Below, piece after piece: positions 3,506-62,234 of a stretch of DNA of 64,000 nucleotides. Origin of the DNA: a virus; the IMG/VR virus record IMGVR_UViG_3300023181_000271. One strand, given 5' to 3'. Each line of letters starts with the position of its first letter. Within the stretch, counting starts at the first letter, position 1. The translations under genes were made by a program, and so were the position numbers. The notes beneath the pieces are model-generated. The model had not been told where the DNA came from and ran no database searches. It was given only the letters and a program-made list of their open reading frames with translations.

Positions 3506-3817
3506 CTATAGTTTTAGGGAACTTGACCAGTCCGATAATCTTGTAGCCATTCCATGATGTTGTGCAATGGCTAACAAGTCAATGTCTTTTATTGCGTCTT
3601 GTTGTAAGAAACGGGCACCACGAATCCTTAATTCTCCTAACATATTTCTTTCTAGATCAGTCGTATCAACTGTCGGATCTAATCTCGATTTTGCAGGCAA
3701 AAGAGGTTTAAAACATGATTGACCACGGAAAAGGTCTATAGTACCTGGATCAGGCTTTCCAAGTGAAATTATTTTACTAAAAAAACTCTCCCATCCATTC
3801 CACCCAACTTTTTTCAT
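3506..3817 (-). pseudogene. FRG-domain protein, probably C-terminally truncated fragment
   Basis: Contains FRGQ signature and downstream SDW motif of FRG domain but ends after 103 aa, shorter than typical FRG proteins; lies in decayed accessory region. Confidence 0.35.
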
Positions 3818-3844
3818 TTTCGATCTATGGTGCTAAAACAAGAT

Positions 3845-4141
3845 TTACGAGGCTATCGCAAATGCTTTTATATTTCCAAATTCCTCTGATTTATCAATTA
3901 GCTCGTTCTCTATGTCATAATCGTTCTGCAAGCCCAGCCAGAACCTTGCAGAATTGCCAAAGAAGATACTTAAACGTAGAGCTGTATCCGCCGTTACTCT
4001 TCTATTTCCTTTAATAATTTCTGAAATACGAGTTTGAGGGATATTGGTTTCCTTCGCTAGACGATAAGCAGTAATATTTAAAGGGATCAGAAATTCCTCA
4101 CTTAGAATTTCACCCGGATGAGTGTTAGGTAGCTTTTCCAT
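3845..4141 (-). CDS. higA: HigA-type HTH antitoxin (addiction module antidote protein)
   Basis: Sequence HPGEILSEEFLIPLNITAYRLAKETNIPQTRISEIIKGNRRVTADTALRLSIFFGNSARFWLGLQNDYD is canonical HigA/XRE HTH; likely start at internal Met (MEKLPN). Confidence 0.8.
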   Translation of the reverse strand: MEKLPNTHPGEILSEEFLIPLNITAYRLAKETNIPQTRISEIIKGNRRVTADTALRLSIFFGNSARFWLGLQNDYDIENELIDKSEEFGNIKAFAIAS

Positions 4142-4151
4142 AATACATTTA

Positions 4152-4379
4152 TTAATGATAATCAATAATTTCTACTTCGCTCGCATTTCCGTCCGACCAT
4201 TTGAAAATTATACGCCATTGGTCATTTATGCGGATACTATAGTAATCCTTTAAATCACCTTTTATCCTCTCCAATTTATTAGATGGTGGAATGGTTAAAT
4301 CAGGAAGCATTAGTATGTACATTGTCAATACGTCCATTCTATTTTTACAATTCCTTTTAGGACTTGCCGTTTTCTGCAC
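4152..4379 (-). CDS. higB: HigB-type toxin (RelE/ParE superfamily plasmid-maintenance killer), possibly N-terminally divergent or truncated
   Basis: C-terminal 45 aa (LERIKGDLKDYYSIRINDQWRIIFKWSDGNASEVEIIDYH) match HigB killer protein; toxin-upstream/antitoxin-downstream order typical of higBA; N-terminal third does not match family. Confidence 0.65.
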   Translation of the reverse strand: MQKTASPKRNCKNRMDVLTMYILMLPDLTIPPSNKLERIKGDLKDYYSIRINDQWRIIFKWSDGNASEVEIIDYH

Positions 4380-7262: not shown

Positions 7263-7559
7263 CTATTGTTCTTTAACTATGTCTTTAGATTTATTAAGCT
7301 TTTTAGTGGTGATACTGTCTTTTTTCTCAGCTTCGACGGCCTGATTTAAAATAATACCGTTCTTGATCAGTAGCGAGGTATTGAGTATATCGTTCTTACT
7401 CCGCTCTGCCTCATACCTCTTTTCGCATTCCTCACAATCACTTTTCTTCAGTACTGTGTATAGCAGGAGAACTACCACCGCGAACAGTGAGACCACTGTT
7501 ACACCCCATGGATACTTCTGCATTTTTTCGGGTGTGGGTATTTTTATTTTCTCAATCAT
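7263..7559 (-). CDS. Putative holin or i-spanin-like protein (single TM + coiled coil)
   Basis: 98 aa, one TM helix (VTVVSLFAVVVLLLYTVL) followed by charged coiled-coil segment; immediately downstream of endolysin with overlapping stop/start. Confidence 0.35.
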   Translation of the reverse strand: MIEKIKIPTPEKMQKYPWGVTVVSLFAVVVLLLYTVLKKSDCEECEKRYEAERSKNDILNTSLLIKNGIILNQAVEAEKKDSITTKKLNKSKDIVKEQ

Positions 7560-8116
7560 TACGCTGCATATTTAAGTTCTGCTTTTGCGAGACTGATATT
7601 GTACGGTTCGCGGCCGTATTTAATTGCAAGTTCTTTGTACCCGCCACCATTGTAATAAGTAGCGACAAGGTGCCAGTTACGTTCCTTAATTGCTTTCCAA
7701 AGTTTAGGATCTGTTTGTATGAATTTTACGATCCCTTTCACCTGTTGGTATTCGGATGCTTTAAAAGCATCAACCATTGCGTCTACAGTTTTAAATCCTA
7801 ATCGCGCATGATGAAAACCCATTATTTGTCCTAAGCCCCAGCTGGTAGAAAGCATTGCAGCAGTTGCATTTAACTTGAAGGCATTAGAGAATGCTTTATA
7901 TTCCTTATCCTGGTTATCTACCTTATTGATTGACCACAAACCTGAAGGTGCGAATGGTGCTTTTTTCTTAAACCAAGCTGGTTCAAATTGAATGACGATC
8001 CTTCCATTAATAAATCCCTTGCCTCCTGACTCAACGCTGATAAAAGCCATTAATGTGGCATAATTTATATCTATTGATTCGGCTAAGCCTTCGATTTCTT
8101 CGCGTGTTAAATTCAT
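7559..8116 (-). CDS. Endolysin, N-acetylmuramidase (DUF3380/PF11860-like) family
   Basis: ISVESGGKGF catalytic-Glu region and overall similarity to phage N-acetylmuramidase endolysins; likely start at internal ATG (MNLTREEIEGL) rather than the GTG at 8143. Confidence 0.65.
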   Translation of the reverse strand: MNLTREEIEGLAESIDINYATLMAFISVESGGKGFINGRIVIQFEPAWFKKKAPFAPSGLWSINKVDNQDKEYKAFSNAFKLNATAAMLSTSWGLGQIMGFHHARLGFKTVDAMVDAFKASEYQQVKGIVKFIQTDPKLWKAIKERNWHLVATYYNGGGYKELAIKYGREPYNISLAKAELKYAA

Positions 8117-8143
8117 AATACAACTGATTATTAGATGTATCAC

Positions 8144-8239
8144 AAATTTACCCCCACGATAAAGGCGGACTGGTTTTAAGGTTTTACCATTGGCTATTGG
8201 TAACTATAAAGTAGGTAACAAGTTACTATTGCTGAGCAC
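8144..8239 (-). promoter_or_regulatory. Copy A of ~95-bp conserved upstream element (ends in GTGGGGGTAAATTT just before start codon)
   Basis: Near-identical blocks shared with 14424-14526; contains TTACCA-N8-TGGTAA palindrome. Confidence 0.5.
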
Positions 8240-8489
8240 TTTGAATAAGATCAACTTTACCGTACAAATTAGATCAGCACGGAAAACCGTCAAATAGAAT
8301 AAATTATTAATAATAACTTACAAAAACTATTATGTTTACAGCTTTAGCAGAAATATTAAAAGGCGAGTCCGTAATACAGAACACACCTTTTAATGGGGAT
8401 TTTCAAGCAGTTATAATGGGTGATCAAATCAGCGTCACATTCGATCTGGAGTCAGATATGTATCTGTTTATCCGATTAACGAAATAGTC

Positions 8490-11162
8490 CTACCAATGAT
8501 CATTAGGCCCCTGCCCAATATACCTTCCATTGATGTATTTTCGGGTTTGTGGACCAGACGAACTAATCAATTCGTAACCAGTAAGTCCCGGATTTTCCCT
8601 GAAATAAATCTCTCCTTTTACCATTATTACGTCGCCAGATGTAACATTTAGTGCTACATTCTGATTAGCACCTTCCGCTGCTAATTCCAAGGCAATATTA
8701 ACAGTATCGTCAAGGCCGGGTACAGTACCTTTTTTGGGTCTTTTATTCTTCAGGTACCCAATTTGGCTGATTGCTCCACCACTGCTGCCCGGAATCAGGT
8801 CTGTCCCAAATGAAAATTCGTTATACTTATCGCCGGTATATCTTGATGACCCCCTAATGATGGCGAAGTTATTACCTTCTGGAAGCGCAGGAATGGTGGT
8901 ACCATCACTTAAAATTGCTCCCCTGGATAGTTTCCATCCAGATGTCTGTCCATCGGCTGTATTCCCAGATTCTGTACCGATTGTAATGTCCCCGGATATA
9001 TTGGCTTTACTCATATAAACGCTGCCATCATCCAGTACTCTGAATGGTAAATCAGCATCTCCTAATTGTCCACCAGCTCCAAAGCGAATTGATTGATCAC
9101 CGGCATCAGTAACGCCACTTATGAAGGCATTCCCTAACCCTGCTGAACCTACATTCAGTAAGCCTTCAGTATAAGAACCATCAAGCATCTGTACTTTGCC
9201 TTTGAACGTACCCTCATCAAGGTTTATCTCTAATTCATTACCAACAATAATTCCCCCCTCAATTGTTCGTCCATAAATGCTTACTGATCCATACACAGAT
9301 TTTAAGTTCCTGTAATTATCAATCACACTATTTGCTATCCCTATCCAGAAATGGTAAAATGTAGGATCCTGATCAACTTTAATTTGAGCATCCGAAACCA
9401 AGATGCTGCCATCTGCAGTTGTACGGTTACACTTCGCATAGATATAATAAACTTTAGCAGGATCCAGTCCAGAAACAGTTGCTCCTGGAACATTCCAGGT
9501 TACAGGAGCCGGAGCAATAGTAGTATGAACTAATTTTCCAGCAGACCAGTTTATCTTATTTACATCCGCTTGATAGTTACTTATAAAGTTCAATCCGACT
9601 AGTACCAGTTGCTGACTTGTATCCCCTGTCTGAATCATCAATGCACGTAAGGTTACTGGTGAAATAGCTTCGGTAAATATCTGCTCAGTTCCCGGATCAA
9701 AGTATTTATTTAACAGCTCCTGAGAAGTTTTCCAAAGCATACGGGAACGCTGGATATTTGTAATTTGGGCAATATTTAAAGCCTTGGTTACCTTCTCGGC
9801 TTCATATGTTACCCTTGCATAACTTGATCCCAATGCCAAATCTGAAATTCGCAGTACTGGATATAGGAATGGCTCGTGTAAATCGCGCTCAAAAGAGTTT
9901 ACCCTGATATTCTTATCAATAACGATATCAGAGTCCTTGACACCTACATAGTTCCCTAGATCAAGCGTGATGTTATTCCGCTTAAAGTAAAACTTATCAG
10001 GCGGCACCTCATAAGCCACCCTTGGTGGTGAGAATTCAGCAAAGTATTCGTTTCCCTTGGTAAGTAAGAACTGCTCCCTCTCAGAAACATAAGAGGGAGG
10101 CATTACCAAGTCATAGAAAAAGTAAGTATCACCGATTTCAGGCTTCATTAAAGCACTTGGCAATTCCAATGCCTTTTCTACTTCATTTTTAATGATTGTA
10201 ATAGTTCGAGTAGCGTGATTGTATCCTCCTTTAGGAATTTCAAACCAATAACCAGCCAGGTTCCCTGTTAAGAAAGAAACCTTAGGTCTTAAAGTTGGCA
10301 ATTCCTGTGTATTGATATCAAAGTCAATTCCCATATCAGAAAAAACAAAGGGAGTGGTCACGCTGGAGACCATACCAATACGTTCAGGCTTAATGTCGGG
10401 AAAGTTGATTACAGCTTCTATTTCATCCGGGCCATACTTTGGCCCTTGAATATAAGGAGTACCTTCTGGAAGCATCAAATTTGGCTGTCTGTTCCTATAA
10501 TTTACTGGTAGGTTCTGATCAGATCCTGTAACATAAAGTCTGCTGAATGCTGCCTTTGAGTCAACATTTGTACGGATTAATCCTCCTCTTAATCCTTTAT
10601 CATATCCGTACTCGAATTTATGACCGGTGACTACACCACGCTTATTAAAATGGATAGTTTTACCAACTACCCACCATTCCGTTTCAAAATCTTTAGCAGT
10701 ATTATCAATAACGGTTAAAATAGATTCTCCATCAAAAGAAATTAGCTTAGGAACCGAATCAATACATTCTCCCCTACTCCATCCGGACTGTGTACGGTTA
10801 GCGTTGGCCACAATCAAATCCAGCATCATACTTGCATTAGCCATGACCTCTGTTTTGATCACTGTAAGCGCATTGATGCTATCATAGAACATCATGATGG
10901 GTTTAGCCAATCTATAGTATTCAGCTTGAAACGTCATTCTGTAGCTGAATGACATACTACTGTTTTTAGTTGGCTCATCCATTTGGTTCAGATAGTAAGT
11001 CTGGCCATAAACAAACATCGTATCACCAATCTGGAATTGATAAGCAGCAGGAGAATTAAAGGTGATAGGAACAATGTCCTTAACCATTATTTCTTTCTCC
11101 TGCTGACCCTTCGGCCAAACTGTAGCAATTATAGCATCGCCTCTTTTAATGTTGTATAACAT
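8490..11162 (-). CDS. Large tail/baseplate structural protein (890 aa)
   Basis: Position at distal end of tail module after fibre gene; size and beta-rich composition typical of siphovirus tail tip/host-specificity proteins. Confidence 0.55.
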   Translation of the reverse strand: MLYNIKRGDAIIATVWPKGQQEKEIMVKDIVPITFNSPAAYQFQIGDTMFVYGQTYYLNQMDEPTKNSSMSFSYRMTFQAEYYRLAKPIMMFYDSINALTVIKTEVMANASMMLDLIVANANRTQSGWSRGECIDSVPKLISFDGESILTVIDNTAKDFETEWWVVGKTIHFNKRGVVTGHKFEYGYDKGLRGGLIRTNVDSKAAFSRLYVTGSDQNLPVNYRNRQPNLMLPEGTPYIQGPKYGPDEIEAVINFPDIKPERIGMVSSVTTPFVFSDMGIDFDINTQELPTLRPKVSFLTGNLAGYWFEIPKGGYNHATRTITIIKNEVEKALELPSALMKPEIGDTYFFYDLVMPPSYVSEREQFLLTKGNEYFAEFSPPRVAYEVPPDKFYFKRNNITLDLGNYVGVKDSDIVIDKNIRVNSFERDLHEPFLYPVLRISDLALGSSYARVTYEAEKVTKALNIAQITNIQRSRMLWKTSQELLNKYFDPGTEQIFTEAISPVTLRALMIQTGDTSQQLVLVGLNFISNYQADVNKINWSAGKLVHTTIAPAPVTWNVPGATVSGLDPAKVYYIYAKCNRTTADGSILVSDAQIKVDQDPTFYHFWIGIANSVIDNYRNLKSVYGSVSIYGRTIEGGIIVGNELEINLDEGTFKGKVQMLDGSYTEGLLNVGSAGLGNAFISGVTDAGDQSIRFGAGGQLGDADLPFRVLDDGSVYMSKANISGDITIGTESGNTADGQTSGWKLSRGAILSDGTTIPALPEGNNFAIIRGSSRYTGDKYNEFSFGTDLIPGSSGGAISQIGYLKNKRPKKGTVPGLDDTVNIALELAAEGANQNVALNVTSGDVIMVKGEIYFRENPGLTGYELISSSGPQTRKYINGRYIGQGPNDHW

Positions 11163-11180
11163 ATTTTAGATCGTCTATAA

Positions 11181-13856
11181 TTAAAGTCCAAACCTGTGCA
11201 TTATATTTAAGTCGTATTTAAACCGCCTAACCATTTCCGAATTACCTGCTTGATTCGGGTGTGTTCCATCATTGAATAATATGGCGTTTAATCGGGGGGC
11301 GGGGTGCGTGCTATCTATTGTAGGGAAATTTTGCAAAGCCGTACACAAATCAAACTTTGCGCCTTGCTTACCAAACGTATCTATCCTCGAATTTACAGCG
11401 ATATGTAAATCATTAGTTACGCAAGTAACATGATTAAGTATCAATTCAATACCATTGGTTGCACAGAAATCTACGATTGATTGGTACTGTGCAACAGTAC
11501 CAATACCATTTATACCTATTTTAACAGAAAGTATTCTAGGTTTAATGTATGCTATCTCATTAGTAAGCGCGGTAATACAGCCTGCTACAGTCTGCCCGGC
11601 CATAGACACATTGCACGCATCATTGTTATAGTAGTCCATTAACTGAACAGCCCAATTTTTATAACATCTACCATTATCTTCAGTAATACTATCACCTGTA
11701 AAAGCGATATACGGTCTGAAAGGCCCATAAATTGAACATTGACCTACCGAAATAGATGTGCCTGACACCAACTCCATGCAATAGAAGGGCCTATGATTTC
11801 CTGCGCCTAAATCATAGTTTAAACCATTTAGATAATCAAACCGAACTTCTACCATAGCTAAAGACCTCGGATCTATTAGCCTGACAATGGTTAATGTAGC
11901 TCTTCGTTCTAACTCAACCCAATATTCTAACCCGGGAGTTATTGCGAAAGTTATAGCGGTAGTGCCAATAATCGTAGTGGTAGCACGCCTGTTGAGATTG
12001 ATTATAAGATTAGGGATATCTATTACACAGCTTGTGTCATATACAAAATTGGCATTAACAGTACCTACCTTAAGTATGCTATCTGCTTGTGGAAATATTG
12101 ATTGCCTGAACAATCTCCGATCAGAGGTATACTGTCTATTTAATATAAGTTTCGAGCCAGCTGTGGTACTTGTCGCAAGCCCGTTAGATAGTACCCAAGC
12201 ATTAAGAGTCCACTCAGTTGTTGGTTGTGAAAAGTTATATTCATAAAACTTAGTCGACCTGCCTAAATTTTTTGCAATTGATGTTAAAGTATCACTGGAC
12301 TTTTTTGCAATATCTTTTACGCCTACCCAATCTTTACTAACCATATTAACAAAGGCTCCTTTTAGCGTGCTAGTACTTGAAAATACATCACCTGCAGTAT
12401 TATAGTAGCAGTTAAACTGAGTTTGCAAACTGGAATCACTAGTATAGGCAATAGCCACACCTTTAAAAGCAAGATATTGCCCTTGATTTACAACTATAGG
12501 CCGCTCCAGAGTCTGAGTAACAATGTTTCCTGAATATGACCTAATTGATGGACTTACGTCAACAAGAGAAACAACAGTAACCACACCAGCTACTATCTCA
12601 CAAATTTTAACTTGTGTAATTTCATCAATAATTGGACTGGTGGATTGAAAAATAAATTGATAAATACTTTTTGGTTTGTCGATCGGGACGCCATTCATAA
12701 TAAATGAAGCATATCCTGAATAGACTGCATATGTACCACTCAGCCAATCAAATGGTATGATTGGCGTCAGGCTTTCCTTATAACCGGCATATAAGTCCTT
12801 TTGCATCAAAGTTAGATCGTCAATCTTACTGCTACTTACGTATGTAGCTGTAAAAAATAGCTTAAAAGTTTGAGTAGTAGTTATGGATGGACTATCACCT
12901 ATAGCTAGAATAGAATTACCTAATGCAAATGCCGTATATCCAGTTACAGGCTGCTCGTACAACGATATTGTTGGAGAAAAGCCGATATATACATCAGAAG
13001 TATACACTTTATTGATCGTATAAGTATTATCACCTACAACAGTAGAGATCGGTATCTTGTCCAATAATGTAAATGAGTTGCCTACTTTGGAAAATAATTG
13101 TATGAATCCATTGGATGCGGTGCCCGCTTTTAAATATATGTACTTAGTTCTTTTATTGGCTGGTATAAATATATTTGCATCCACCCAATTTTGACCAGTA
13201 ACAGCTGTAGTTGCTGTGCCGCTAGTTGTAATGGTCTGAACCACATCAAGGCCATCCAGTACTGGTTTAAATAATTCTGAAGGAACATACTTAGACAGGT
13301 CGCTAACATTAGCCTTACTGAGTAAATCATCAACCCATACAGCAGATGTTCCTGGCACATCTGTAGATAATGCTGCTCCGCTTGAAATCCAGTATTTGCC
13401 TAAATAAGCTACGGCCATACCTAGACTATACGCTTGAGCAACCCATGATGGTATACGCGAAACTCCGGCTGTACCTGCTGCGCCTCGAATATCAACAGCG
13501 TTGGCAATAACTGTAGAAAAACCAGTTGCAGTAACATAGCTATTGATATTCTCAGTGGGCTTTGTTCCGGCTCCACCTGTATAATCAACTAATTTCTGAA
13601 CAATCCTGGTTCCATCTACAACATTAGCAAATACAGGCTGCCATCCTTTATCTCCCGGAAGTCCCCGTTCAGAATAAACCTGCCAGTAGGCAGTATTCGT
13701 GGGGAGCGTACCGGCAGGTACAGATCCAGATGTCGAAACAAGATATGACGCACCTAAATAACTAACAAAATCAAGATATTCATAATTTGCAGTAGCTGCA
13801 TTCCATGTTCCCCGTGGAGTATTACCTACCTTCCCTAAATTTACTGTTGTTGCCAT
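11181..13856 (-). CDS. Tail fibre/receptor-binding protein with C-terminal SGNH (GDSL) esterase domain
   Basis: 891 aa; C-terminal blocks FTGDSITEDNG (block I GDS), GINGIG (block III) and DGTHPN (block V DxxH) of SGNH hydrolases; Gly/Thr/Ser-rich fibre-like N-terminal region. Confidence 0.65.
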   Translation of the reverse strand: MATTVNLGKVGNTPRGTWNAATANYEYLDFVSYLGASYLVSTSGSVPAGTLPTNTAYWQVYSERGLPGDKGWQPVFANVVDGTRIVQKLVDYTGGAGTKPTENINSYVTATGFSTVIANAVDIRGAAGTAGVSRIPSWVAQAYSLGMAVAYLGKYWISSGAALSTDVPGTSAVWVDDLLSKANVSDLSKYVPSELFKPVLDGLDVVQTITTSGTATTAVTGQNWVDANIFIPANKRTKYIYLKAGTASNGFIQLFSKVGNSFTLLDKIPISTVVGDNTYTINKVYTSDVYIGFSPTISLYEQPVTGYTAFALGNSILAIGDSPSITTTQTFKLFFTATYVSSSKIDDLTLMQKDLYAGYKESLTPIIPFDWLSGTYAVYSGYASFIMNGVPIDKPKSIYQFIFQSTSPIIDEITQVKICEIVAGVVTVVSLVDVSPSIRSYSGNIVTQTLERPIVVNQGQYLAFKGVAIAYTSDSSLQTQFNCYYNTAGDVFSSTSTLKGAFVNMVSKDWVGVKDIAKKSSDTLTSIAKNLGRSTKFYEYNFSQPTTEWTLNAWVLSNGLATSTTAGSKLILNRQYTSDRRLFRQSIFPQADSILKVGTVNANFVYDTSCVIDIPNLIINLNRRATTTIIGTTAITFAITPGLEYWVELERRATLTIVRLIDPRSLAMVEVRFDYLNGLNYDLGAGNHRPFYCMELVSGTSISVGQCSIYGPFRPYIAFTGDSITEDNGRCYKNWAVQLMDYYNNDACNVSMAGQTVAGCITALTNEIAYIKPRILSVKIGINGIGTVAQYQSIVDFCATNGIELILNHVTCVTNDLHIAVNSRIDTFGKQGAKFDLCTALQNFPTIDSTHPAPRLNAILFNDGTHPNQAGNSEMVRRFKYDLNIMHRFGL

Positions 13857-13857
13857 G

Positions 13858-14418
13858 TTATTGTTTCGTTAAAATGAGTTGTTTTCTGCTATTCAAAGCA
13901 AAAGTGTATGTTGATTTGTCGTCCTTGGTTACCAGCAAGTCCATATTTGCGTCTACATTAAAGAAGAATTCACCATCAGTTTTATAGGGGACTGGCTGTA
14001 ATATTTCATCAAATGTGAATTGAACCTCTACTGCTATTTTACTTGTAAGATTGGTAATACGGTGCCAGCTGATCCCATCAGGCTGTAATCTGGCATTCAT
14101 CTTCACTCCAAGATGTACAGCCTCTAAAGTCACATAAGGCTGATATAGGAATCCTGGTAAAGCGATTTTTGTCGAATTATAAATGCTGATATTATCGCAG
14201 TATACGATCCCTTTAATAGTTGGTGTTCGCGGCTTTTGAATTACTGGTGCTAATAAATCATATTCCAGTATACCCTCAGCCCATTGATATTTATCTGGCT
14301 CTAACGTTCCAGCTGGTTTCTCAAAACTGTCGGCCGTTGTTAAATCCCGAGTAGGCAGAATGTTGAGTGCCTGAAAAAGGTTGTAACCATTAATATTGTA
14401 TTGCGCTGTGATCGCCAT
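13858..14418 (-). CDS. Hypothetical tail-module protein
   Basis: 186-aa ORF between beta-helix gene and fibre gene, preceded by conserved 95-bp element. Confidence 0.4.
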   Translation of the reverse strand: MAITAQYNINGYNLFQALNILPTRDLTTADSFEKPAGTLEPDKYQWAEGILEYDLLAPVIQKPRTPTIKGIVYCDNISIYNSTKIALPGFLYQPYVTLEAVHLGVKMNARLQPDGISWHRITNLTSKIAVEVQFTFDEILQPVPYKTDGEFFFNVDANMDLLVTKDDKSTYTFALNSRKQLILTKQ

Positions 14419-14423
14419 AAAAC

Positions 14424-14526
14424 AAATTTACCCCCACTATGAACAGAGGCCGGATTTATGGTTTTACCAATAGCCAATGGTAACGAACAAGCACGCGTAA
14501 CAAGACAAGGCTTTCTTATTGAGCAC
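14424..14526 (-). promoter_or_regulatory. Copy B of ~95-bp conserved upstream element
   Basis: Shares aaatttacccccac...ggttttacca-N8-tggtaac...gtaacaag...tattgNtgagcac blocks with 8144-8239; central 20-bp palindrome inverted relative to copy A. Confidence 0.5.
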
Positions 14527-15853
14527 CTACACCTACGAATTTTGATTTGAAGGTTGTAAGATCGGTAACCGCCTCCTGCCAAGTGTTTAAGTATAGATTA
14601 CCAGAATCCTTTACAATATTACCCCCATTTGAATTGGTCATATTTCCGATCGCATTAGCGGGCCTGTACATATCAAATCCAAAGTTGTTGTAATATGAAA
14701 TTTTACCGCCCGTATTATAAGTATCCAGCATCACCCCTTCCCAGTCTTTAGATATAGTAAGGTGCCCAGCTGTATTATTATATACATAAGCATCGGTATA
14801 ATTAATAACTCCTTTATGTGAGGTTAAGAAATCTACTATATGCTGTGGTGCCTGTAATTCAAATGCGCTATACTTCCAGCTGTTATAAACGATATTATTA
14901 TAAATCTTAATGTCCTTCACCGTGCTGCCAAAAGATACGCCCCAAGCCCTAATTGCATTTCCCTGATGGTTAGTGATCTTATTATCATGAAATGAGCCAT
15001 TGCCGGTAATCATGAAAATACCATTATGAATGCCATTAGGTGCCGACTTATCGTAGACATTATTGATATTGTTCACTACGTTACCTGCAATCTCATATCC
15101 ATCCAAAGCGGATGCGTACATGACTGTGCCAATAGTCGGGCAGTCTACAAATTTGTTATTCAAGATTTTTATCCCTGACATATAGGTGGTAATTCCACCA
15201 TCGCTGTAACCTCCTCCTAGCCCGATACCTTGTCCTACATTGGTGAAGGAGCAATTTTCTATACGCCAATCTTTTGAATTGGTTTTATCTGTACCATCCC
15301 AGATCCCTGCATATTCATAGGTGATCACATTGCTTTTAATATTCTTAAAAGTCAAATCATGCAGGTAAATTCCTGTACAGAAACCCCTAATATTGACAGC
15401 ACGATACGATTGATCAGCCATTGTTAATCCATACAACTCAAAGTTATTTGCATTATTAATATCGAATGAACTGTAGTCTGAATTAATTGTAACCCCTGTA
15501 GCATCAATCACAACATTGGTGGCACTGGTAAAACCTATGCTCCAATAATTGCCCGGTTTAATTTTGAACTTCTTATTTGCAAGTACACCTAAATCAAGCC
15601 TTCCGGAGCCGGTACCTACCAGGATCCAAGTAGGATGAGACAATAGGTAATCTTTGTAGGCTTTGGTCACGACAGACTTCGCCACACTTCCAGTGATCGT
15701 TAGTACGGTTCCATCGGAATACTTTACCGTATTGGTAACGACTGATGCGCTCGTATAAGAAATAGTTTTCCCATCAATAGGGAAAGATCCTGTTTGTGCT
15801 GATGCAAACATAGTGTAGCTGATCAGCAATAGCGTTAATAGTTTTCTCATCAT
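14516..15853 (-). CDS. Sec-signal right-handed beta-helix (pectate-lyase-like) protein; candidate depolymerase or secreted moron
   Basis: N-terminal signal peptide MMRKLLTLLLISYTMFASAQ; multiple PbH1-like repeats (NCSFTN, ILNNKFVDC, IAGNVVNN, FHDNKITN, IYNNIVYNS). Confidence 0.6.
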   Translation of the reverse strand: MMRKLLTLLLISYTMFASAQTGSFPIDGKTISYTSASVVTNTVKYSDGTVLTITGSVAKSVVTKAYKDYLLSHPTWILVGTGSGRLDLGVLANKKFKIKPGNYWSIGFTSATNVVIDATGVTINSDYSSFDINNANNFELYGLTMADQSYRAVNIRGFCTGIYLHDLTFKNIKSNVITYEYAGIWDGTDKTNSKDWRIENCSFTNVGQGIGLGGGYSDGGITTYMSGIKILNNKFVDCPTIGTVMYASALDGYEIAGNVVNNINNVYDKSAPNGIHNGIFMITGNGSFHDNKITNHQGNAIRAWGVSFGSTVKDIKIYNNIVYNSWKYSAFELQAPQHIVDFLTSHKGVINYTDAYVYNNTAGHLTISKDWEGVMLDTYNTGGKISYYNNFGFDMYRPANAIGNMTNSNGGNIVKDSGNLYLNTWQEAVTDLTTFKSKFVGVGAQ

Positions 15854-15866
15854 ATTATTTGTTAAA

Positions 15867-18800
15867 TTATCTTCCTACTCCCTGTTGCGCTTTCAATTGA
15901 TCATCCATCTTTCTGTTCATGGATACCAGTGAATTTTCAATGCTTTCTAATCGATTTGTGTTATCGGCTGTCCTGAGCGTATTAGCTGCAATCTTCTGAC
16001 TTTCCAAAAGGTTTAATGAACTCATATTCAATATTTGAATCGCAGTCAAACCCATCGGTTTAAGGATGTTATTTGTTTCCAATTGCGTTAACCTGAAACC
16101 TGCAAAATGCCCCGCTAATACATCTGCTTGTGTGGCTGTAATTGCTTGAATTCCGCTTTTAATTGTTCCTGATGAATCATCAGAACCTAATAAATTTGAC
16201 CCAGTAATCTTTTTAAACTCTTCAAATTTCTTTAAAGCATCGCCAGTAAGGGAGGTGAACAATCCATTTAAGGTGGCAATCTCATCAGCAGTTAATTCAT
16301 CGCCACTCTGCGCGGCCTTATCAAATTCACTATAAAACTTCTCCATAGCACCAGCAAGCACTTTATTCTTAAATATGCTTAGCGCCGCGTCATCCATTGT
16401 CTGTTTAAAGAAATCTGCCAGATCCTGAGCAGACGTTTTACCAGAAGCAAACATCTCAGCGAGTGTATTCGTTAGATTGTCGGAAGTAGTACCCGTGAAT
16501 AGTTCCGATGTTTCTTTAGCCAAATCAGCAATAGCCTGTTCAGCATCGTATCCTTTCTGCTCTAATTCCTTCAACCGCTCAACTAAGGCCTTAGCATCAC
16601 CTTCCAGTTTACCTTGTGCAAGTAGATTGCTTAACTCCTGAAAGCTTTTACCCTGGAGACTTCCATAGGTCTTGTCTACTTTTGCTTTACGGAACCAGGT
16701 ACCATGCGTATAAGTCTCATTAGCGATGAACGACTGGCTTTGCAACTTCGCCATGATCTCTGCAGCTTCCTTCGTATATGCTTCGTTCTGCGACTTTCGT
16801 AATGCCAACTCATCCCTGATACCTTGCAGTGCAACCTTATTATTCCTGACCGTTTGAAGTTGCCTTTCCTTCAACATATCCTGATATTCACGTTCGCCAG
16901 CAATTGCATTGATATAGAAATCTTCAACCTCTTTACGAGCAGCAGCGTTCATCTCTTTTACTTTTTTTCCAATAGACAAGAGCCCTGTTACAGCAGTTAC
17001 TGCTTTAGTTACTCCACCAACGATATCTCCACTTGCAAAAGAAGAAAAAGAACCTGCAGCATCTGATCCAACCTTAACTAGTTTGCCAATCGTATCTAAT
17101 AAGTATCCCGCCTGTGTATCGTTACCACCTAATGATGTCGATAACTCATCGAAACTACTTGATAAGGCACCAAGGTCTTTAGATACTCCAGCAGCAAACT
17201 CAGAAGATGTTCCTTTTAAATAACTAAAGTTTTCAGCAATCTTATCACCCCAAGAAGCAGCACCATCACCATTTTTATCGATCTCCTTAATCTTAATACC
17301 GATAGCCGCTAACCTGGTAATGATTGCTTTGTAATCATCTTCGCTTAAAATGATTTCATTACCATCTTCGTCCTTTACATGAAGCTGATCACTTACCCTC
17401 TTAAATTCATCCTTTAAGTTTTGAAGATTACCTTTATCAATTCCAATTTTAAAAGATAATTTAAGTGCATCTAGGCTTTTCTGAACTTTGATAACTTGTT
17501 CTGCTGGTAAGGTGCCGGATCCTAGAACACCCTCTAATGCCCTGATCTGTTGAACCAATTGTTCTCTTGTCAGAATTAAAGCTTCTTCTGCCGCCCTTTT
17601 ATACACAGCAGACTTCTGCAGCATAGCTGACGACAATTGGTCAATTTCATCCTGGTATGCCTTAGTACGTACAGCACGATTACTAGCATTAGCATCACCA
17701 GTCATTTTTTCAAAATCAGCATTAAACTTCTCAGTCGCTGTAGTTTTAGCCTGTTGATAAGTAGCATTGGTAAGCAAAAGAGCGTTATAATTATCCCTTT
17801 CTTTTTTCTGCTCTTCTTTGATACGATTTGCAACAATAATTAAACGCTCCTGCTCCGGACCAGATAGAAGCTTTCCATTTATAGAATTAGATACCCCCTT
17901 ATAGATTAGCTTTGAGTACTCATCTTTCAGTGTATCCAGATAGTTTTTAGTACTTCCTAATTCAGTAGCAAACCTTTTCTTAGCAGCAGTTTCACCAATT
18001 TCTTTTTTTGCCTGTTCGAAGTCAGTATATAATACTTTTTGTTTATCCAGTTCAATAGTTAACTTGGCAGTATTCTGTCTATAAGTTACTGCCGCAAGTT
18101 CTTTCTTCTCACCTTCAGCCAAGCCGCCTGCATCTACACTTAATCCCTTTGCTTTATTTTTAACATCCTTATTAAATGCAGCCGCTTCAGCTCGCATCTT
18201 AATATACTTATCCTTTACGGACTCAATTTCCTGTTGATCAGCGGACAATTGTCTATCTGTACCGGCCTTTATAAGTTCAGCAATCTTTGTTTGTAAATCA
18301 TTTCTCGCTTTTAAGGCTGAAGCATATTGATTCTTTTCTGTAATGCCAGAGTTGTCAATACCACCATTGGCAAGTTTTAACTCTTTTCGTAAGTCTTTTA
18401 ATTTCTTAAGATTCGACTGATATTGTGCAGTGGTGTATCCCAGTTTCTTATTTGCATCTACAAGCGCTTTGATATCTGCCTTAATATCATCAGTAGTTCT
18501 ACCTTCTCCTCCAGCGCCATCGAAAGTCTCCTGAACAGCACCATAGAGACCAGTATAAGATTTTCTAAGTTTATCAACAATGGATTGTTGCTGCAATAAA
18601 GGAGCCTGCAGATTTTTGAACCTGTCAACAAAAGGTTTAATTGCAGCTTCAGAATTCTTAGGATTTTTAGCGTATTCTTTAGCATAATTGGATTGCTCAT
18701 ACAACCGATTCAACTTGCTTTGCTGAATATCAATCGCCTTTTTTAAAGAAGGTTCATCAATATTAGTATCAACAATCAACTTTGATTTGATCGTAGCAAT

Positions 18801-26270: not shown

Positions 26271-26354
26271 AGCAGTTTTTAAGCTTTTTGAGAATAAGCC
26301 TAAAATTACCTAGGATATAAACGCACCTTGATTTTTACAAATCACCATTGACCA

Positions 26355-26762
26355 ATGGTAATACTTTGCTATATTAAAAGAAAATTAAACGAACTCATGG
26401 GATTACAAGAAAAGTACACAAGCTACATAAGAGGAACAGAACAGGTAGAAGACCTAAACAAAAAAATCGACTATGCAGAGAAGCAAGTGATAGCACATAA
26501 AACATATGCTAAAAATGACAGTTGGGTACTAGCTGATGTTGTTGACAGTCTAATTAATAAGCAGAATGAAATAAAAACACTGACCGATAAAAGAGATAGT
26601 CTTGTGAATAGTAATAAGACTCTTGAAACTGAAATTTATGACATATTCTCGCACATCGATAATAAACCAGTAATGATGCAGATCAGTGGTGCGAACATAC
26701 TTGTGTCAGTCGTTTTTGATGGTGATGGAAATAGAATGTTTTCATCCACTCATCATGGTTAA
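26355..26762 (+). CDS. Antisense-oriented hypothetical coiled-coil protein (moron candidate) inside head module
   Basis: Only plus-strand ORF within 20 kb of minus-strand structural genes; fills a 488-bp gap; convergent overlapping stop with head-morphogenesis gene; probable start at MGLQEKY (26397). Confidence 0.45.
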   Translation: MVILCYIKRKLNELMGLQEKYTSYIRGTEQVEDLNKKIDYAEKQVIAHKTYAKNDSWVLADVVDSLINKQNEIKTLTDKRDSLVNSNKTLETEIYDIFSHIDNKPVMMQISGANILVSVVFDGDGNRMFSSTHHG

Positions 26763-31831: not shown

Positions 31832-31902
31832 CATGAGTGAAAGGATTCGAACCTATATCAATAGTTTTGGAGACCACTATTCTACCTTTGAACTACACTC
31901 AC
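31832..31902 (-). tRNA. Phage-encoded tRNA-Trp (anticodon CCA)
   Basis: Manual fold: acceptor GUGAGUG/CACUCAU, D-stem GUUC/GAAU, anticodon stem with loop CUCCAAA, T-arm AUAGG-TTCGAAT-CCUUU. Confidence 0.65.
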
Positions 31903-32177: not shown

Positions 32178-32251
32178 TTGACCTGGAAGGACTCGAACCC
32201 TCAATCTTCTGAACCAAAATCAGACGTGCAAACCAATTACACCGCAGATCA
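32178..32251 (-). tRNA. Phage-encoded tRNA-Gln (anticodon UUG) with U1-A72 pair
   Basis: Manual fold: acceptor UGAUCUG/CAGGUCA (U1:A72 as in bacterial tRNA-Gln), anticodon stem UCUGA/UCAGA with loop UUUUGGU, T-arm GAGGG-TTCGAGT-CCUUC. Confidence 0.65.
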
Positions 32252-32257
32252 ATTTTA

Positions 32258-32464
32258 CTACGCTTTTTCGTGAAACTTCAATACCTCATCAACTGCATTC
32301 TGCAGGTCTGTAACTACATCTTCTGAATGTCCACCACCGATTGTGATGATCACCCTTGGATGAGTTGTCATGATATCCACTGATACCTCGCCATTTGCGA
32401 AGGCCTGACTTGTTTTTTCCCGGTCCAGTGGGAACTTAGTTTTTAGCTTTGCCATATTATTCAA
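32258..32464 (-). CDS. Hypothetical protein
   Basis: Co-oriented ORF in early/late transition region. Confidence 0.3.
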   Translation of the reverse strand: MNNMAKLKTKFPLDREKTSQAFANGEVSVDIMTTHPRVIITIGGGHSEDVVTDLQNAVDEVLKFHEKA

Positions 32465-32984
32465 AAAATTTGTGTTCGGTTTTGATCAGCTCGTAAAGCC
32501 GGTAAGTCTCAGACTTAAATTCTTTATAAGCACGGAAAGCAACGATGACACATGATATCCTTTTCTTTAAAATATCACGGGAACAATTCAGTTCCGCAGC
32601 CATTCTGCTTAAGATGAATCTTTTCAATCTGATATTGCTGATGCTTAAAACCTTCTCAGGCTGATAAAGTAGCATAATCACGGAAACCAGAAGATCTCTA
32701 TTCTCTGATATCGATCTGTTTCCTCCTTTATTAATCCATACTTCGCTATTAATCCCCTTAATGGCTTTGAAAGAACGTACAACTAAAGGAATTAAAGACA
32801 CATCTTCCAGGGATGCCGGTAACTCTTCATCCAGCCTTTTACGGATACATAAATCCACTTCCGGATACTCTCTGCGTAGGATATTTGTGATTAAAGCTGA
32901 ACTGTATTCCCTCATATGAAGTAAAGATAAAAACAAATGTTCTAATTGTTCTAATTCAGAACATAAATAAGTGAATTTTTTCAC
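32457..32984 (-). CDS. Hypothetical protein (preceded by ATGTTCT motif)
   Basis: 175-aa ORF; conserved operator-like motif 20-45 bp upstream. Confidence 0.35.
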   Translation of the reverse strand: MKKFTYLCSELEQLEHLFLSLLHMREYSSALITNILRREYPEVDLCIRKRLDEELPASLEDVSLIPLVVRSFKAIKGINSEVWINKGGNRSISENRDLLVSVIMLLYQPEKVLSISNIRLKRFILSRMAAELNCSRDILKKRISCVIVAFRAYKEFKSETYRLYELIKTEHKFFE

Positions 32985-33530: not shown

Positions 33531-33773
33531 ATGACCGACAAATCCCAGATATCACAGATAGATGCTGCAACCCTTAAGACGGTTGGTTTAAACATACGTA
33601 AGTACAGGAAACTAAAAGGATTAACTCAAAATGAATTAGCCGATCTCGCAATGATATCTAGAAGTCAAGGTCAGGCATATGAATATGGGACTATTAATCA
33701 AAGTGTAATCAGCTTAAGAAAAATTGCGAGTACTTTAGGGATCAGTATGTCCAAGCTTTTCGATGAGCTTTAA
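33531..33773 (+). CDS. XRE-family HTH transcriptional regulator (Cro/C1-type)
   Basis: LKGLTQNELADLAMISRSQGQAYEYG helix-turn-helix; plus-strand inside minus-strand early region. Confidence 0.7.
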   Translation: MTDKSQISQIDAATLKTVGLNIRKYRKLKGLTQNELADLAMISRSQGQAYEYGTINQSVISLRKIASTLGISMSKLFDEL

Positions 33774-46620: not shown

Positions 46621-47568
46621 TTAGTATTTAGACATTACACAATGTCCGTGACTCATTTTATACTCAATAAGTTCCTCGTCAGTCATGTGACCAAATTCAG
46701 CAATAGCCTCCTGAAGTATTTCAGGTAGAAGCTTTTCACCTTTAACCCCTAAATTTTTACCGACCCTATGGCTCCACTTAGCAATTTTATTAGCTTCATA
46801 ACGAACCCAATCATACCAATCAGCAGGATGAAATCTAAATAACCACAGTATTTCAATTTTACTTAGGTAAGGACAGAACTTGCAATTAGAAGGAAAGGGT
46901 AATTTAAAATTTGTATGGTTTAAAATATGATCGTGAACATTCCACCGCGCAATTCCTTCCAAAACAAGCGGGTAAATCTTTTCTACCGCTAACCTAAACC
47001 ATAATGGGACCGGGTTTTTATGCTTTTTAAAGGCATCTGTTTGGTTTGCTTTAAGTTCCTTTTTGGTAGCTTTTTTAATCCTCTGCTCCTCGCCTGCGGC
47101 TATACCAATGATCATTCTAATTCTACTATGGTCCTTAGCAAATTTCTTAATGAAATTCTTACCTTTTGGTTGAATGACTGAATTGTAACCGTAATATTTT
47201 TTAGCGATATAATGATCTATAAAATTATAGATAGGCTTAATTTTTAGATTATCTGTGCATGATCTCGGCCCCATTAATGACATTATCGAATCATTTTTAA
47301 TAAACTGTCCCTCTAAGGTCTGCCACGTTGCAGGATGATATTCGCCATTAGTTAAAAAATAAAACTCAATTCCATATTGGTGGCAGAGGGCTTTGATATA
47401 ATTCACGTGTTCATATGTGTGCTTATGTTCATTACCAGGGTCCGACTCTACTACAATGAAATGACCTTTAACATATTTTTCTCTAAACTCTTGATAAAGC
47501 ATTATACGATACAATATGTCAGTACTATCCTGTCCAGCTCCGAAAGATAAAACGGTTAATTGTTCCAT
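46621..47568 (-). CDS. PAPS-reductase-like PP-loop ATP pyrophosphatase family protein (DndC/CysH-like)
   Basis: N-terminal PP-loop variant LSFGAGQDST (cf. SGGKDS); 315 aa; several conserved Cys. Confidence 0.7.
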   Translation of the reverse strand: MEQLTVLSFGAGQDSTDILYRIMLYQEFREKYVKGHFIVVESDPGNEHKHTYEHVNYIKALCHQYGIEFYFLTNGEYHPATWQTLEGQFIKNDSIMSLMGPRSCTDNLKIKPIYNFIDHYIAKKYYGYNSVIQPKGKNFIKKFAKDHSRIRMIIGIAAGEEQRIKKATKKELKANQTDAFKKHKNPVPLWFRLAVEKIYPLVLEGIARWNVHDHILNHTNFKLPFPSNCKFCPYLSKIEILWLFRFHPADWYDWVRYEANKIAKWSHRVGKNLGVKGEKLLPEILQEAIAEFGHMTDEELIEYKMSHGHCVMSKY

Positions 47569-50132: not shown

Positions 50133-50138
50133 GGCCGT

Positions 50139-50360
50139 TTAACCTTTGGTTCCGACTGTTGTTTTGAACTCATAAACTGCTTCATCATCTTTCAGAAATG
50201 GACCACTGACCGTTGCTGTAGTCAGCTCCGGATAATTGTTTGAATAGAAAACCATCACTTCGTCTGGACTAAAAGCATTATTTGGATCTTCCAAAATCTG
50301 ATCTTTACCGTTTAATTTTGCTTTGAAGGTTCTTACTACACCTTGAATATTTAATGCCAT
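50139..50360 (-). CDS. Small ubiquitin-sized protein ending in Gly (PRTRC protein C-like / possible beta-grasp carrier)
   Basis: 73 aa; C-terminus ...TTVGTKG; located within E1-like cassette. Confidence 0.35.
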   Translation of the reverse strand: MALNIQGVVRTFKAKLNGKDQILEDPNNAFSPDEVMVFYSNNYPELTTATVSGPFLKDDEAVYEFKTTVGTKG

Positions 50361-62052: not shown

Positions 62053-62234
62053 TGAAAGAAGAATCAGAATCTGACAGACTGCAGCGATTGAGTGATGAAG
62101 AATTTGCCCGTACCGGTGTATTCAATGCAAATTTCAAGATGGATATCACGATCACGGAAAATGATATGATCAAAGACCTGGTAAACAAAACAGCAGGTAA
62201 AAATATAAAGATTGATAAACCAAACAATAACTAA
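62052..62234 (+). CDS. Hypothetical small acidic protein
   Basis: 60-aa ORF. Confidence 0.25.
   Translation: MKEESESDRLQRLSDEEFARTGVFNANFKMDITITENDMIKDLVNKTAGKNIKIDKPNNN

What the first reader, a model, noticed from the sequence alone, without database searches (positions are those of the whole stretch)
8144..8239. Two copies of a ~95-bp conserved leader element with a 20-bp palindromic core that is inverted between copies
Regions 8144-8239 and 14424-14526 share the blocks aaatttacccccac, ggttttacca-N8-tggtaac, gtaacaag and tattgNtgagcac. Each copy ends, in mRNA sense, with GTGGGGGTAAATTT immediately before a start codon (endolysin; 186-aa tail gene). The central core TTACCA-N8-TGGTAA has perfect inverted arms, but the 8-bp spacer is atagccaa in one copy and its exact reverse complement ttggctat in the other. 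The flanks ggtttt and c keep the same orientation. The element could be a late-gene leader, an RNA structure or a protein-binding site. The flipped core suggests either a palindromic operator read in both orientations or a small site-specific inversion.
Basis: seen in the sequence. Interest (0 to 1): 0.7.

Follow-up and report, generated by a model that had tools for sequence, protein, structure and literature searches.

The report
Activator-dependent late promoters of a Bacteroidota prophage
The repeated ~95-bp element is most likely a phage late-gene promoter, present three times in this prophage, in which a 20-bp palindromic protein-binding site sits at a fixed distance upstream of a Bacteroidota-type promoter box; the "flipped" core is a small evolutionary inversion that a symmetric binding site tolerates.

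Summary
Both copies exist at the stated coordinates, the 8-bp spacers are exact reverse complements, and a third copy (26301-26361) was missed. All lie on the minus strand in a tmRNA-integrated prophage of a Bacteroidota, probably Sphingobacteriales, host. Each copy is TTACCA-N8-TGGTAA, then exactly 31 nt, then GGTAA(A/T)TTT(G/A), which contains the Bacteroidota sigma-A "-7 box" TAnnTTTG. That places the dyad centre at about -55.5 from the predicted start site. The architecture recurs in 15 scored sites from about ten related phages, and several follow intrinsic terminators. The 31-nt linker keeps its length but not its sequence. A more distant phage carries a changed dyad (TTACG-N10-CGTAA) at both its head and lysis promoters. 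I therefore read the element as an activator-dependent late promoter, not an RNA leader. The best activator candidate is an uncharacterised 152-aa protein (32457-32915). It co-occurs with the motif, sits directly upstream of it in a head-less derivative, and its model resembles the DnaA DNA-binding domain. The flipped core reflects swapped strong and weak half-sites. It is a real minute inversion (chance about 0.002) with no sign of programmed switching. All of this is inferred from sequence; no transcription start or binding was measured.

The parts
8184..8203 (-). Dyad operator of the lysis promoter. mRNA sense: TTACCA ATAGCCAA TGGTAA. The strong half-site (TTACCATTG on the opposite strand) is promoter-proximal. 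Centre at about -55.5.
8153..8183 (-). 31-nt linker between the dyad and GG+(-7 box). Its length is invariant across the family, its sequence is poorly conserved, and an A-tract lies next to the dyad.
8143..8150 (-). -7 box TAAATTTG of the lysis promoter. Predicted transcription start is A at 8138.
   Evidence: box positions from PMC6847099
8117..8138 (-). Predicted 22-nt endolysin leader. The conserved inverted repeat ATACA-N13-TGTAT spans it and extends two bases upstream of the predicted start (to 8140). It is kept in L035 in front of a non-homologous endolysin.
8215..8226 (-). Auxiliary 12-bp palindrome GTAAC-NN-GTTAC upstream of the main dyad, found in lysis-type copies. It is built from the same GTTAC/GTAAC half-motif.
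7559..8116 (-). Endolysin gene (PF11860 muramidase) driven by the lysis promoter.
14464..14483 (-). Dyad operator of the tail-fibre-module promoter. mRNA sense: TTACCA TTGGCTAT TGGTAA. The strong half-site is distal, i.e. the flipped copy.
14423..14430 (-). -7 box TAAATTTG. The predicted start at 14418 is the A of the ATG, so the 186-aa gene would be expressed from a leaderless mRNA.
   Evidence: PMC6847099; GGTAAATTTGTTTTATGGC conserved in L040, L041 and L054
13858..14418 (-). 186-aa tail-module gene, first gene after the second promoter.
26342..26361 (-). mRNA sense: TTACCA TTGGTCAA TGGTGA.
26301..26308 (-). -7 box variant TAATTTTA of the head promoter. Predicted start near 26296, about 26-nt leader to ATG 26270.
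   Evidence: the same box and leader in L061, L063, L064, L065, L069, L070, L072-L074
25566..26270 (-). 234-aa head-module gene, first gene after the head promoter.
32457..32915 (-). Candidate late activator (152 aa, P0014). An uncharacterised family whose model resembles DnaA domain IV. It lies just upstream of two tRNA genes and the small terminase gene.

Best explanation
Each copy is a late promoter that needs a phage-encoded activator.

Proposed mechanism:
- A dimeric, or paired-monomer, DNA-binding protein binds the 20-bp dyad TTACCAnT-N4-AnTGGTAA, centred about 55.5 bp upstream of the start site.
- From there it recruits host RNA polymerase with the Bacteroidota housekeeping sigma factor to an otherwise weak core promoter. 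That core has a -7 box TAAATTTG or TAATTTTA, no TTTG -33 box, and G-rich DNA at about -15 to -20 in two of the three copies.
- The window has three such promoters. They head the capsid module (start near 26296), the tail-fibre module (start at 14418, which would make the 186-aa gene leaderless) and the lysis module (start at 8138).
- The most likely activator is the 152-aa protein encoded at 32457-32915, made from the preceding early or middle transcript.

The flipped core: because the operator is dyad-symmetric, its orientation is largely neutral. The two halves are usually unequal (TTACCATTG strong, TTACCAAT-n weak), and in the 14464-14483 copy they are swapped. The two window copies have also exchanged sequence with each other by recombination or gene conversion. 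The palindromic core was inverted in one of them, most simply by hairpin-mediated template switching.

Status of the steps. Shown: motif anatomy, copy number, fixed geometry, conservation, and covariation across phages. Inferred: start sites, activation rather than repression, the identity of the binding protein, and the inversion mechanism.
For: 1. Host and promoter type.
- The closest named relatives of the terminase are Bacteroides fragilis phages, at 47% identity.
- A relative lies in a Sphingobacteriales MAG.
- Only 4 of 66 ORFs have a Shine-Dalgarno-like motif.
- The GGTAAATTTG block contains TAnnTTTG. PMC6847099 places this at T-12 to G-5 with the start 4-5 nt after the box.

2. Geometry.
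- Linker sequences share mostly only 5-21 of 31 bases.
- The distance from the box to the start codon varies (4 nt in 186-type copies, 26 nt in lysis-type and about 30-35 nt in head-type copies), so the box is coupled to the dyad and not to translation.

3. Position.
- All sites are intergenic and co-oriented with the downstream gene, at the heads of the head, tail-fibre and lysis modules.
- Several directly follow intrinsic terminators: L035 tail, L065, L103 and L056.

4. Portability. The promoter and leader are conserved in front of non-homologous endolysins.

5. Covariation of specificity.
- In phage IMGVR_UViG_3300028586_000799, both the head promoter (L069) and the lysis promoter (L103) carry TTACG-N10-CGTAA in place of TTACCA-N8-TGGTAA, at the same 31-nt distance.
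- L056 has ATTTGACAA...TTGTCAAAT centred 41.5 nt from GGTAAGTTTG, against 41.0 nt for the window sites.
- L070, L072, L073 and L074 show further dyad variants at the same place.

6. Activator candidate.
- P0014 homologues occur in the motif-bearing phages L061/L035, L062, L063, L064 and L065.
- In the head-less L062 element, the non-structural genes shared with the window are one immunity-region HTH gene, two tiny early ORFs, a 94-aa ORF and this gene. The single dyad promoter starts 37 bp after its stop codon.
- The putative helix-turn-helix segment differs between the TTACCA-dyad phages (ELNCS..LK) and the variant-dyad phages (LGTS..LS).

7. Flip.
- The halves are usually distal TTACCAAT and proximal TTACCATTG. 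They are swapped in the window's 186-gene copy and in the L035 lysis copy.
- Exact reverse complementarity has a chance probability of about 0.002.
- L041 is a crossover product of the two copies.
- The two window copies resemble each other (21 of 31 linker bases) more than they resemble their positional counterparts in other phages (12-18 of 31).
Against: - No transcription start, binding or expression data exist. Everything is inferred from sequence.
- In Flavobacterium johnsoniae the -33 box is weak in general (PMC6847099). Its absence is therefore weak evidence for activator dependence.
- The head-type box is TAATTTTA, with A instead of the nearly invariant G at -5.
- The DnaA-domain similarity is at fold level only. 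There is no significant Pfam, NCBIfam or PDB sequence match, and hhalign against E. coli DnaA domain IV gives E = 0.32.
- Co-occurrence of P0014 and the motif is confounded by shared phage ancestry.
- L062 also shares an HTH gene, two tiny early ORFs and a 94-aa ORF with the window, so other conserved proteins could be the binder.
- The L054 phage has a site, but no P0014 homologue on a contig of its length appeared. I could not read its early region.
- No site precedes the terminase and portal genes.
- In the variant-dyad phage only two promoters were recovered.
Confidence: 0.75

Rival explanations
1. The dyad is an operator for a repressor, for example the prophage CI-like protein or a lysis-timing regulator. 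It would keep otherwise constitutive late promoters silent in the lysogen rather than activate them.
For: - Dyad-symmetric sites are typical of phage repressors.
- The window encodes several HTH proteins: 60715-61479, 62212-62628 and 33531-33773.
- The -33 box is weak in Bacteroidota promoters in general, so its absence does not prove that an activator is needed.
Against: - A site centred at -55.5 does not overlap the core promoter, where repressors usually act.
- The G-rich -15 to -20 region and the missing -33 box suggest a weak promoter.
- The head-less L062 element keeps the 152-aa gene immediately upstream of its only dyad promoter, which suits a cascade activator.
Confidence: 0.1
2. The element acts as RNA. 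The hairpin UUACCA-N8-UGGUAA and its flanks would be a transcribed leader or intercistronic structure that controls processing, stability, antitermination or translation of late mRNAs.
For: - Copy 2 fills the 97-nt gap between two co-oriented genes, so read-through transcripts would contain it.
- The arms can pair.
- Arm changes in other phages are symmetric, which would also preserve a stem.
Against: - Fold energies are not better than shuffles (z +0.74, +0.71, -1.5).
- There is no Rfam match.
- The conserved downstream block is a promoter box at a fixed 31-nt distance, while its distance to the start codon varies.
- Several copies follow intrinsic terminators, so transcription must restart there.
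- The hairpin is followed by A residues, not U residues.
Confidence: 0.07
3. The palindromic cores are sites of programmed DNA rearrangement. They would either flip the 8-bp spacer as a phase switch or serve as crossover sites that shuffle or duplicate the tail-fibre module lying between copies 2 and 1.
For: - The spacers are exact reverse complements.
- L041 shows a copy-1-left / copy-2-right junction, with the crossover inside TGGTAAAACC.
- The tail-fibre genes lie between two direct copies.
Against: - An 8-bp segment is far too short for known invertases.
- No recombinase gene lies nearby. The only one found is the integrase at 62625-63863.
- An independent assembly has the same orientations.
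- The third copy, and most copies in relatives, have no rearranged partner.
- The L041 junction is explained by ordinary homologous recombination between paralogous promoters.
Confidence: 0.04

Closest known systems
P2/186/P4 late promoters activated by Ogr, B or Delta (TGT-N12-ACA)
   Same: - Several late promoters per genome: P2 has four, controlling head, tail and lysis operons (PMC3931495).
- Each has a conserved dyad upstream of a weak core promoter and is recognised by a small phage-encoded activator.
- The dyad is centred near -55 (the P2 position is from my own knowledge).
   Different: - Different dyad sequence.
- Different host phylum and sigma type (-7 box TAnnTTTG rather than -10/-35).
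- The candidate activator is an all-helical protein resembling DnaA domain IV, not a C4 zinc-finger protein.
- One target gene is predicted to be leaderless.
RinA / ArpU / Ltr-type late activators of Gram-positive siphophages
   Same: A small phage-specific activator gene lies just upstream of the small terminase gene and switches on morphogenesis and lysis genes (PMC3152322).
   Different: - Those act on one promoter upstream of terS.
- Here no site precedes terS, and three sites lie further downstream.
- There is no sequence relationship.
Bacteroidota housekeeping promoters (sigma-ABfr; -33 TTTG / -7 TAnnTTTG)
   Same: The -7 box matches exactly in two window copies, and the start site is predicted 4-5 nt after the box (PMC6847099).
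   Different: No -33 TTTG, G-rich DNA at -15 to -20 in two of the three copies, and an added upstream dyad with an A-tract.
DnaA domain IV (DnaA-box binding domain)
   Different: No significant sequence similarity. The candidate is a stand-alone 150-aa protein, and its sites are inverted pairs at promoters, not replication-origin arrays.
Hairpin-associated minute inversions in plastid non-coding DNA
   Same: Short segments of 4-50 bp between short inverted repeats flip recurrently, probably via hairpins (PMC12371153, citing Kelchner and Wendel 1996).
   Different: Here the inverted segment is the centre of a functional operator in a phage genome. The mechanism is inferred only.

Membership tests
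Ogr/Delta-dependent P2-type late promoter | Consensus TGT-N12-ACA dyad | tested here: not met
   The dyad is TTACCA-N8-TGGTAA. The P2 consensus is from PMC3931495.
Ogr/Delta-dependent P2-type late promoter | C4 zinc-finger activator (CX2CX22CX4C) encoded by the phage | tested here: not met
   None of about 55 window ORFs scanned against Pfam matches an Ogr/Delta family. The candidate activator is all-helical.
Ogr/Delta-dependent P2-type late promoter | Several late promoters with a dyad about 55 bp upstream of the start site | tested here: met
   There are three sites. The centre falls at -55.5 when the -7 box is placed as in PMC6847099. The start sites themselves are predicted, not measured.
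Bacteroidota sigma-A promoter | -7 box TAnnTTTG (TAHHTTTG) | tested here: met
   TAAATTTG at 8143-8150 and 14423-14430. The third copy is TAATTTTA, with one departure at G-5.
Bacteroidota sigma-A promoter | -33 box TTTG about 19 bp upstream of the -7 box | tested here: not met
   No TTTG at that position in any of the 15 linkers.
Bacteroidota sigma-A promoter | Transcription starts 4-5 nt after the box | not testable with these tools
   Needs 5'-end mapping.
Invertible DNA switch (phase variation) | Both orientations present in one population | tested here: inconclusive
   A second assembly from another sample (L019) is 100% identical with the same orientations. Raw reads are not available.
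Invertible DNA switch (phase variation) | Dedicated recombinase nearby and an invertible segment long enough to loop | tested here: not met
   The segment is 8 bp. No recombinase is found near any copy, and the only one in the window is the integrase at 62625-63863.
Structured RNA leader or known RNA family | Match to an Rfam model, or a fold clearly more stable than shuffles | tested here: not met
   No Rfam hit in these regions. Fold z-scores are +0.74, +0.71 and -1.5.
DnaA domain IV-like DNA-binding proteins (candidate activator) | Fold similarity to DnaA domain IV | tested here: met
DnaA domain IV-like DNA-binding proteins (candidate activator) | Sequence-level membership (Pfam Bac_DnaA_C or a significant profile match) | tested here: not met
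   No Pfam, NCBIfam or PDB sequence hit, and hhalign gives E = 0.32.
DnaA domain IV-like DNA-binding proteins (candidate activator) | Binds the dyad DNA | not testable with these tools
   Needs a gel-shift or footprinting experiment.

The most novel reading that the evidence does not exclude
The 152-aa protein founds an undescribed family of phage late-gene activators. The family has about 120 clusters at 50% identity and no relative in deposited phage genomes. Its DNA-binding domain resembles DnaA domain IV. Each phage lineage would pair its own variant with a co-evolved dyad operator placed 55 bp upstream of a Bacteroidota -7 box. That would give natural sets of orthogonal activator/promoter pairs. 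The operators would also act as recombination points where late-gene modules are exchanged and where the palindromic core can flip.
Probability: 0.5. Interest if true: 0.6.

Novelty: new variant of a known kind. Interest (0 to 1): 0.5.

Why it matters
- As far as my literature searches show, no late promoter or late activator has been defined for temperate Bacteroidota phages.
- This analysis gives a precise promoter architecture, three predicted start sites (one of them leaderless) and a candidate regulator family. All can be tested with simple reporter and gel-shift experiments.
- If confirmed, the lineage-specific operator/activator pairs would be useful inducible parts for Bacteroidota genetics.
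- It would also explain how head-less, tail-only derivatives such as L062 keep their regulation.
- The flipped core is an example of a hairpin-type minute inversion inside a functional operator.

Tried and rejected
- Megablast of 7500-15000 against deposited phages found no match.
- tblastn of the candidate activator against deposited phages found no match.
- The exact core-plus-flank pattern in IMG/VR gave only chance hits in coding DNA.
- The genome-contig scan gave 11 hits, 10 of them chance. L016 looked like chance at first but proved real, because it lies in the L062 element.
- The 186-aa protein has no relatives in IMG/VR.
- In its more distant homologues (L056, L058, L060) the gene abuts the upstream gene with no element. 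The tail-fibre promoter is therefore not universal.
- I rejected the Shine-Dalgarno reading of GGGGG.
- The sigma-70 promoter and terminator scan around copy 1 was uninformative, because it uses the wrong promoter type for this host.
- I considered a terminator reading of the dyad hairpin and rejected it. The hairpin is followed by A residues on the sense strand and preceded by T residues on the other strand.
- I considered hix/gix-like invertase sites because of GGTTTT/AAAACC. The half-sites are not in inverted arrangement and no invertase gene was found.
- The endolysin-based search for relatives was abandoned because the L005 endolysin is not homologous.
- The afdb50 fold library was unavailable.
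- The strict variant-dyad scan found only head-type copies. The relaxed scan recovered the second, lysis copy among about 100 chance hits.

Full report
**Observation**

Reading the sequence and aligning the two regions confirms the finding. On the + strand, 8184-8203 is TTACCATTGGCTATTGGTAA and 14464-14483 is TTACCAATAGCCAATGGTAA. The arms are perfect inverted repeats and the spacers are exact reverse complements. The flanks GGTTTT and C keep their orientation. GTGGGGGTAAATTT occurs exactly twice on the minus strand.

The dyad pattern is over-represented: 3 hits against 0.25 expected, with 0 of 100 shuffles reaching 3. All genes here lie on the minus strand, so I describe everything below in mRNA sense.

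**Setting**

- The window is a prophage next to the 3' part of a tmRNA gene, with an integrase at 62625-63863.
- Late genes run from about 31.7 kb down to 6.5 kb. They include terminase, portal, capsid, a 1711-aa tape-measure protein, tail-fibre proteins and a PF11860 endolysin.
- The host is a Bacteroidota. The best named terminase relatives are Bacteroides fragilis phages. Only 4 of 66 ORFs have a Shine-Dalgarno-like tetramer upstream. A related element lies in a Sphingobacteriales MAG.
- The window comes from metagenome assemblies. A contig from another sample (L019) is 100% identical over 16.5 kb and has the same spacer orientations.

**Anatomy**

All three window copies have the same layout: TTACCA-N8-TGG(T/G)(A/G)A, then exactly 31 nt, then GGTAA(A/T)TTT(G/A). 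A weight matrix built from the family finds these three sites at 55-71 bits. Nothing else in 64 kb reaches 12 bits, and no shuffle reaches 8 bits.

The downstream block contains TAAATTTG, or TAATTTTA in the head copy. This is the Bacteroidota sigma-A "-7 box" TAnnTTTG. In Flavobacterium johnsoniae it occupies T-12 to G-5, and transcription starts 4-5 nt after it (PMC6847099). Applying that geometry gives the following:

| Promoter | Dyad | -7 box | Predicted start | Consequence |
|---|---|---|---|---|
| Lysis | 8184-8203 | 8143-8150 | 8138 | 22-nt leader to endolysin ATG 8116 |
| Tail-fibre module | 14464-14483 | 14423-14430 | 14418 | Start is the A of the ATG, so the 186-aa gene would be leaderless |
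| Head | 26342-26361 | 26301-26308 | about 26296 | About 26-nt leader to ATG 26270 |

The dyad centre falls at -55.5 in each case. No TTTG -33 box sits at the expected place. The -15 to -20 region is G-rich in two of the copies.

The endolysin most likely starts at ATG 8116, not GTG 8143, for three reasons:
- The ATG and the leader are conserved in relatives.
- The gene caller uses this ATG in L019.
- PHROG alignments begin at residue 10-11 of the GTG-started ORF.

**Relatives**

Pattern scans and protein-guided look-ups recovered the same architecture in about ten related phages or prophages. With the window copies they give 15 scored sites, plus variants. The loci are L005/L035/L061, L030, L032, L040, L041, L054, L062, L063, L064 and L065.

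- The linker sequence is poorly conserved, mostly 5-21 identities out of 31.
- The distance from the box to the start codon varies by promoter class (4, 26 and about 30-35 nt). The box is therefore coupled to the dyad, not to translation.
- Several sites directly follow intrinsic terminators, so transcription must restart there: L035 tail, L065, L103 and L056.
- In L035 the promoter and leader precede an endolysin that is not homologous to the window's. The element is therefore a portable regulatory module.

**Covariation**

More distant relatives keep the geometry but change the dyad symmetrically:
- L056 has ATTTGACAA...TTGTCAAAT centred 41.5 nt from GGTAAGTTTG, against 41.0 nt for the window sites.
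- L070, L073 and L074 carry further variants.
- Most tellingly, phage IMGVR_UViG_3300028586_000799 has TTACG-N10-CGTAA at both its head promoter (L069) and its lysis promoter (L103). The lysis copy follows a terminator and lies 31 nt from GGTAAATTTG.

A change shared by separate promoters of one genome points to a phage-specific factor that acts in trans and reads the dyad.

**RNA alternative**

The three elements fold no better than shuffled sequences (z +0.74, +0.71, -1.5). No Rfam family matches them. The hairpin is not followed by a U-run. I give this reading about 7%.

**Candidate activator**

The ORF at 32457-32984, called as 152 aa from ATG 32915 (P0014), lies just upstream of two tRNA genes and the small terminase gene.

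- Homologues at 40-77% identity occur in the motif-bearing phages.
- In the Sphingobacteriales MAG element L062, head genes are missing. The non-structural genes it shares with the window are one immunity-region HTH gene, two tiny early ORFs, a 94-aa ORF and this gene. The element's one dyad promoter begins 37 bp after the P0014 homologue's stop codon, in front of the tail genes.
- The family has no Pfam, NCBIfam, PHROG or PDB sequence match and no relative in deposited phage genomes.
- It comprises 121 clusters at 50% identity, all about 150 aa long.
- The putative helix-turn-helix segment reads ELNCS..LK in phages with the TTACCA dyad and LGTS..LS in phages with variant dyads. This is suggestive but confounded by phylogeny.

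I put about 0.55 on this protein being the binder.

**The flipped core**

Across sites the halves are usually unequal. The promoter-proximal half is TTACCATTG(G), and the distal half is TTACCAAT followed by variable bases. The window's tail-fibre copy and the L035 lysis copy have the halves swapped. The window head copy and the L035 tail copy have two strong halves. So orientation is not fixed, as expected for a symmetric dimer site.

Exact reverse complementarity of the two window spacers is still unlikely by chance: about 8e-4 per pair and about 0.002 for the window. The two window copies also resemble each other more (21 of 31 linker bases) than they resemble their positional counterparts in other phages (12-18 of 31).

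L041 is a direct crossover product. It is copy-1-like up to and including the spacer, then 100% identical to copy 2 for 140 nt, with the join inside TGGTAAAACC.

I conclude that the paralogous promoters exchange sequence, and that the palindromic core was physically inverted in one of them. The direction cannot be resolved, because the L035 tail promoter has TTGGCTAA, close to the window's TTGGCTAT. Hairpin-mediated minute inversions of 4-50 bp are well known in plastid DNA (PMC12371153). The mechanism here is inferred.

Nothing supports programmed switching. The segment is 8 bp, no recombinase gene is nearby, and an independent assembly has the same orientations.

**Comparison with known systems**

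| Known system | Similar | Different |
|---|---|---|
| P2/186/P4 late promoters | Several per genome, with an upstream dyad (TGT-N12-ACA) read by a small phage activator (PMC3931495) | Fails the membership tests: different dyad, no zinc-finger activator, different sigma type |
| RinA-type regulators of Gram-positive phages | Regulator gene lies just upstream of terS (PMC3152322) | Different target layout |

Literature searches found no described late promoter or late activator for Bacteroidota temperate phages. These are negative results from a limited library.

**Verdict**

The best explanation is an activator-dependent late promoter, with confidence 0.75. I class it as a new variant of a known kind and score its interest as moderate (0.5).

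Noticed in passing
window 47568-50974 (-): The prophage early region encodes a ThiF-like E1, a prokaryotic E2 (family D) and a PRTRC_E protein. This is a PRTRC-type ubiquitin-like system inside a phage genome.
   Followed up: no
window 31832-31902 and 32178-32251 (-): Two tRNA genes lie between the candidate activator gene and the small terminase gene.
   Followed up: no
L062 (JAATFQ010000274.1, Sphingobacteriales MAG) 7873-20459: A head-less, tail-only derivative of this prophage type. It keeps the CI-like repressor, three small early ORFs, the activator candidate, one dyad promoter and the tail genes. It could be a tailocin-like element.
   Followed up: partly
L041 (Ga0247809_1058904), whole 1517-bp contig: The gene order is 890-aa gene, divergent 51-aa ORF, promoter, 186-aa gene. 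This is a junction of copy-1 left flank with copy-2 right flank. It implies recombination between the two promoter copies, either a module permutation or a tandem duplication.
   Followed up: partly
window 8215-8226; L005 13604-13615: A second small palindrome, GTAAC-NN-GTTAC, lies upstream of the lysis-type dyad. Its central dinucleotide is TT in the window and AA in L005 (mRNA sense), so it too is reverse-complemented.
   Followed up: no
window 8117-8140 (-): The endolysin leader carries a conserved inverted repeat, ATACA-N13-TGTAT, that ends one base before the ATG. It is kept in L030, L032 and L035, even in front of a non-homologous endolysin. Its function is unknown; it could be a second operator or a translation control.
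   Followed up: no
window 8332-8487 (+), 26355-26762 (+); L005 13090-13530 (-): Small ORFs on the opposite strand abut the late promoters, transcribed divergently from them. The 135-aa one looks coiled-coil-like and its ORF begins inside the head dyad. They may be morons or regulators.
   Followed up: no
L056 6343-6414: A related phage with a different endolysin family has a terminator, then a different perfect dyad (ATTTGACAA...TTGTCAAAT), at the same distance from GGTAAGTTTG.
   Followed up: partly
L058 16400-16450: A 20-bp perfect palindrome, TGTATAATTTAAATTATACA, lies upstream of a 68-aa ORF between the tail and lysis genes of a more distant relative that lacks the TTACCA motif.
   Followed up: no
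window 11181-13856 (-): The 891-aa tail-fibre protein shows weak C-terminal similarity to GDSL esterases. Both Pfam matches fall below their curated thresholds. Homologues in L054 carry GDSL domains too.
   Followed up: no
window 3506-4165 (-): A HigB-like toxin and HTH antitoxin pair lies in the host DNA next to the prophage end. It is annotated on the identical contig L017.
   Followed up: no
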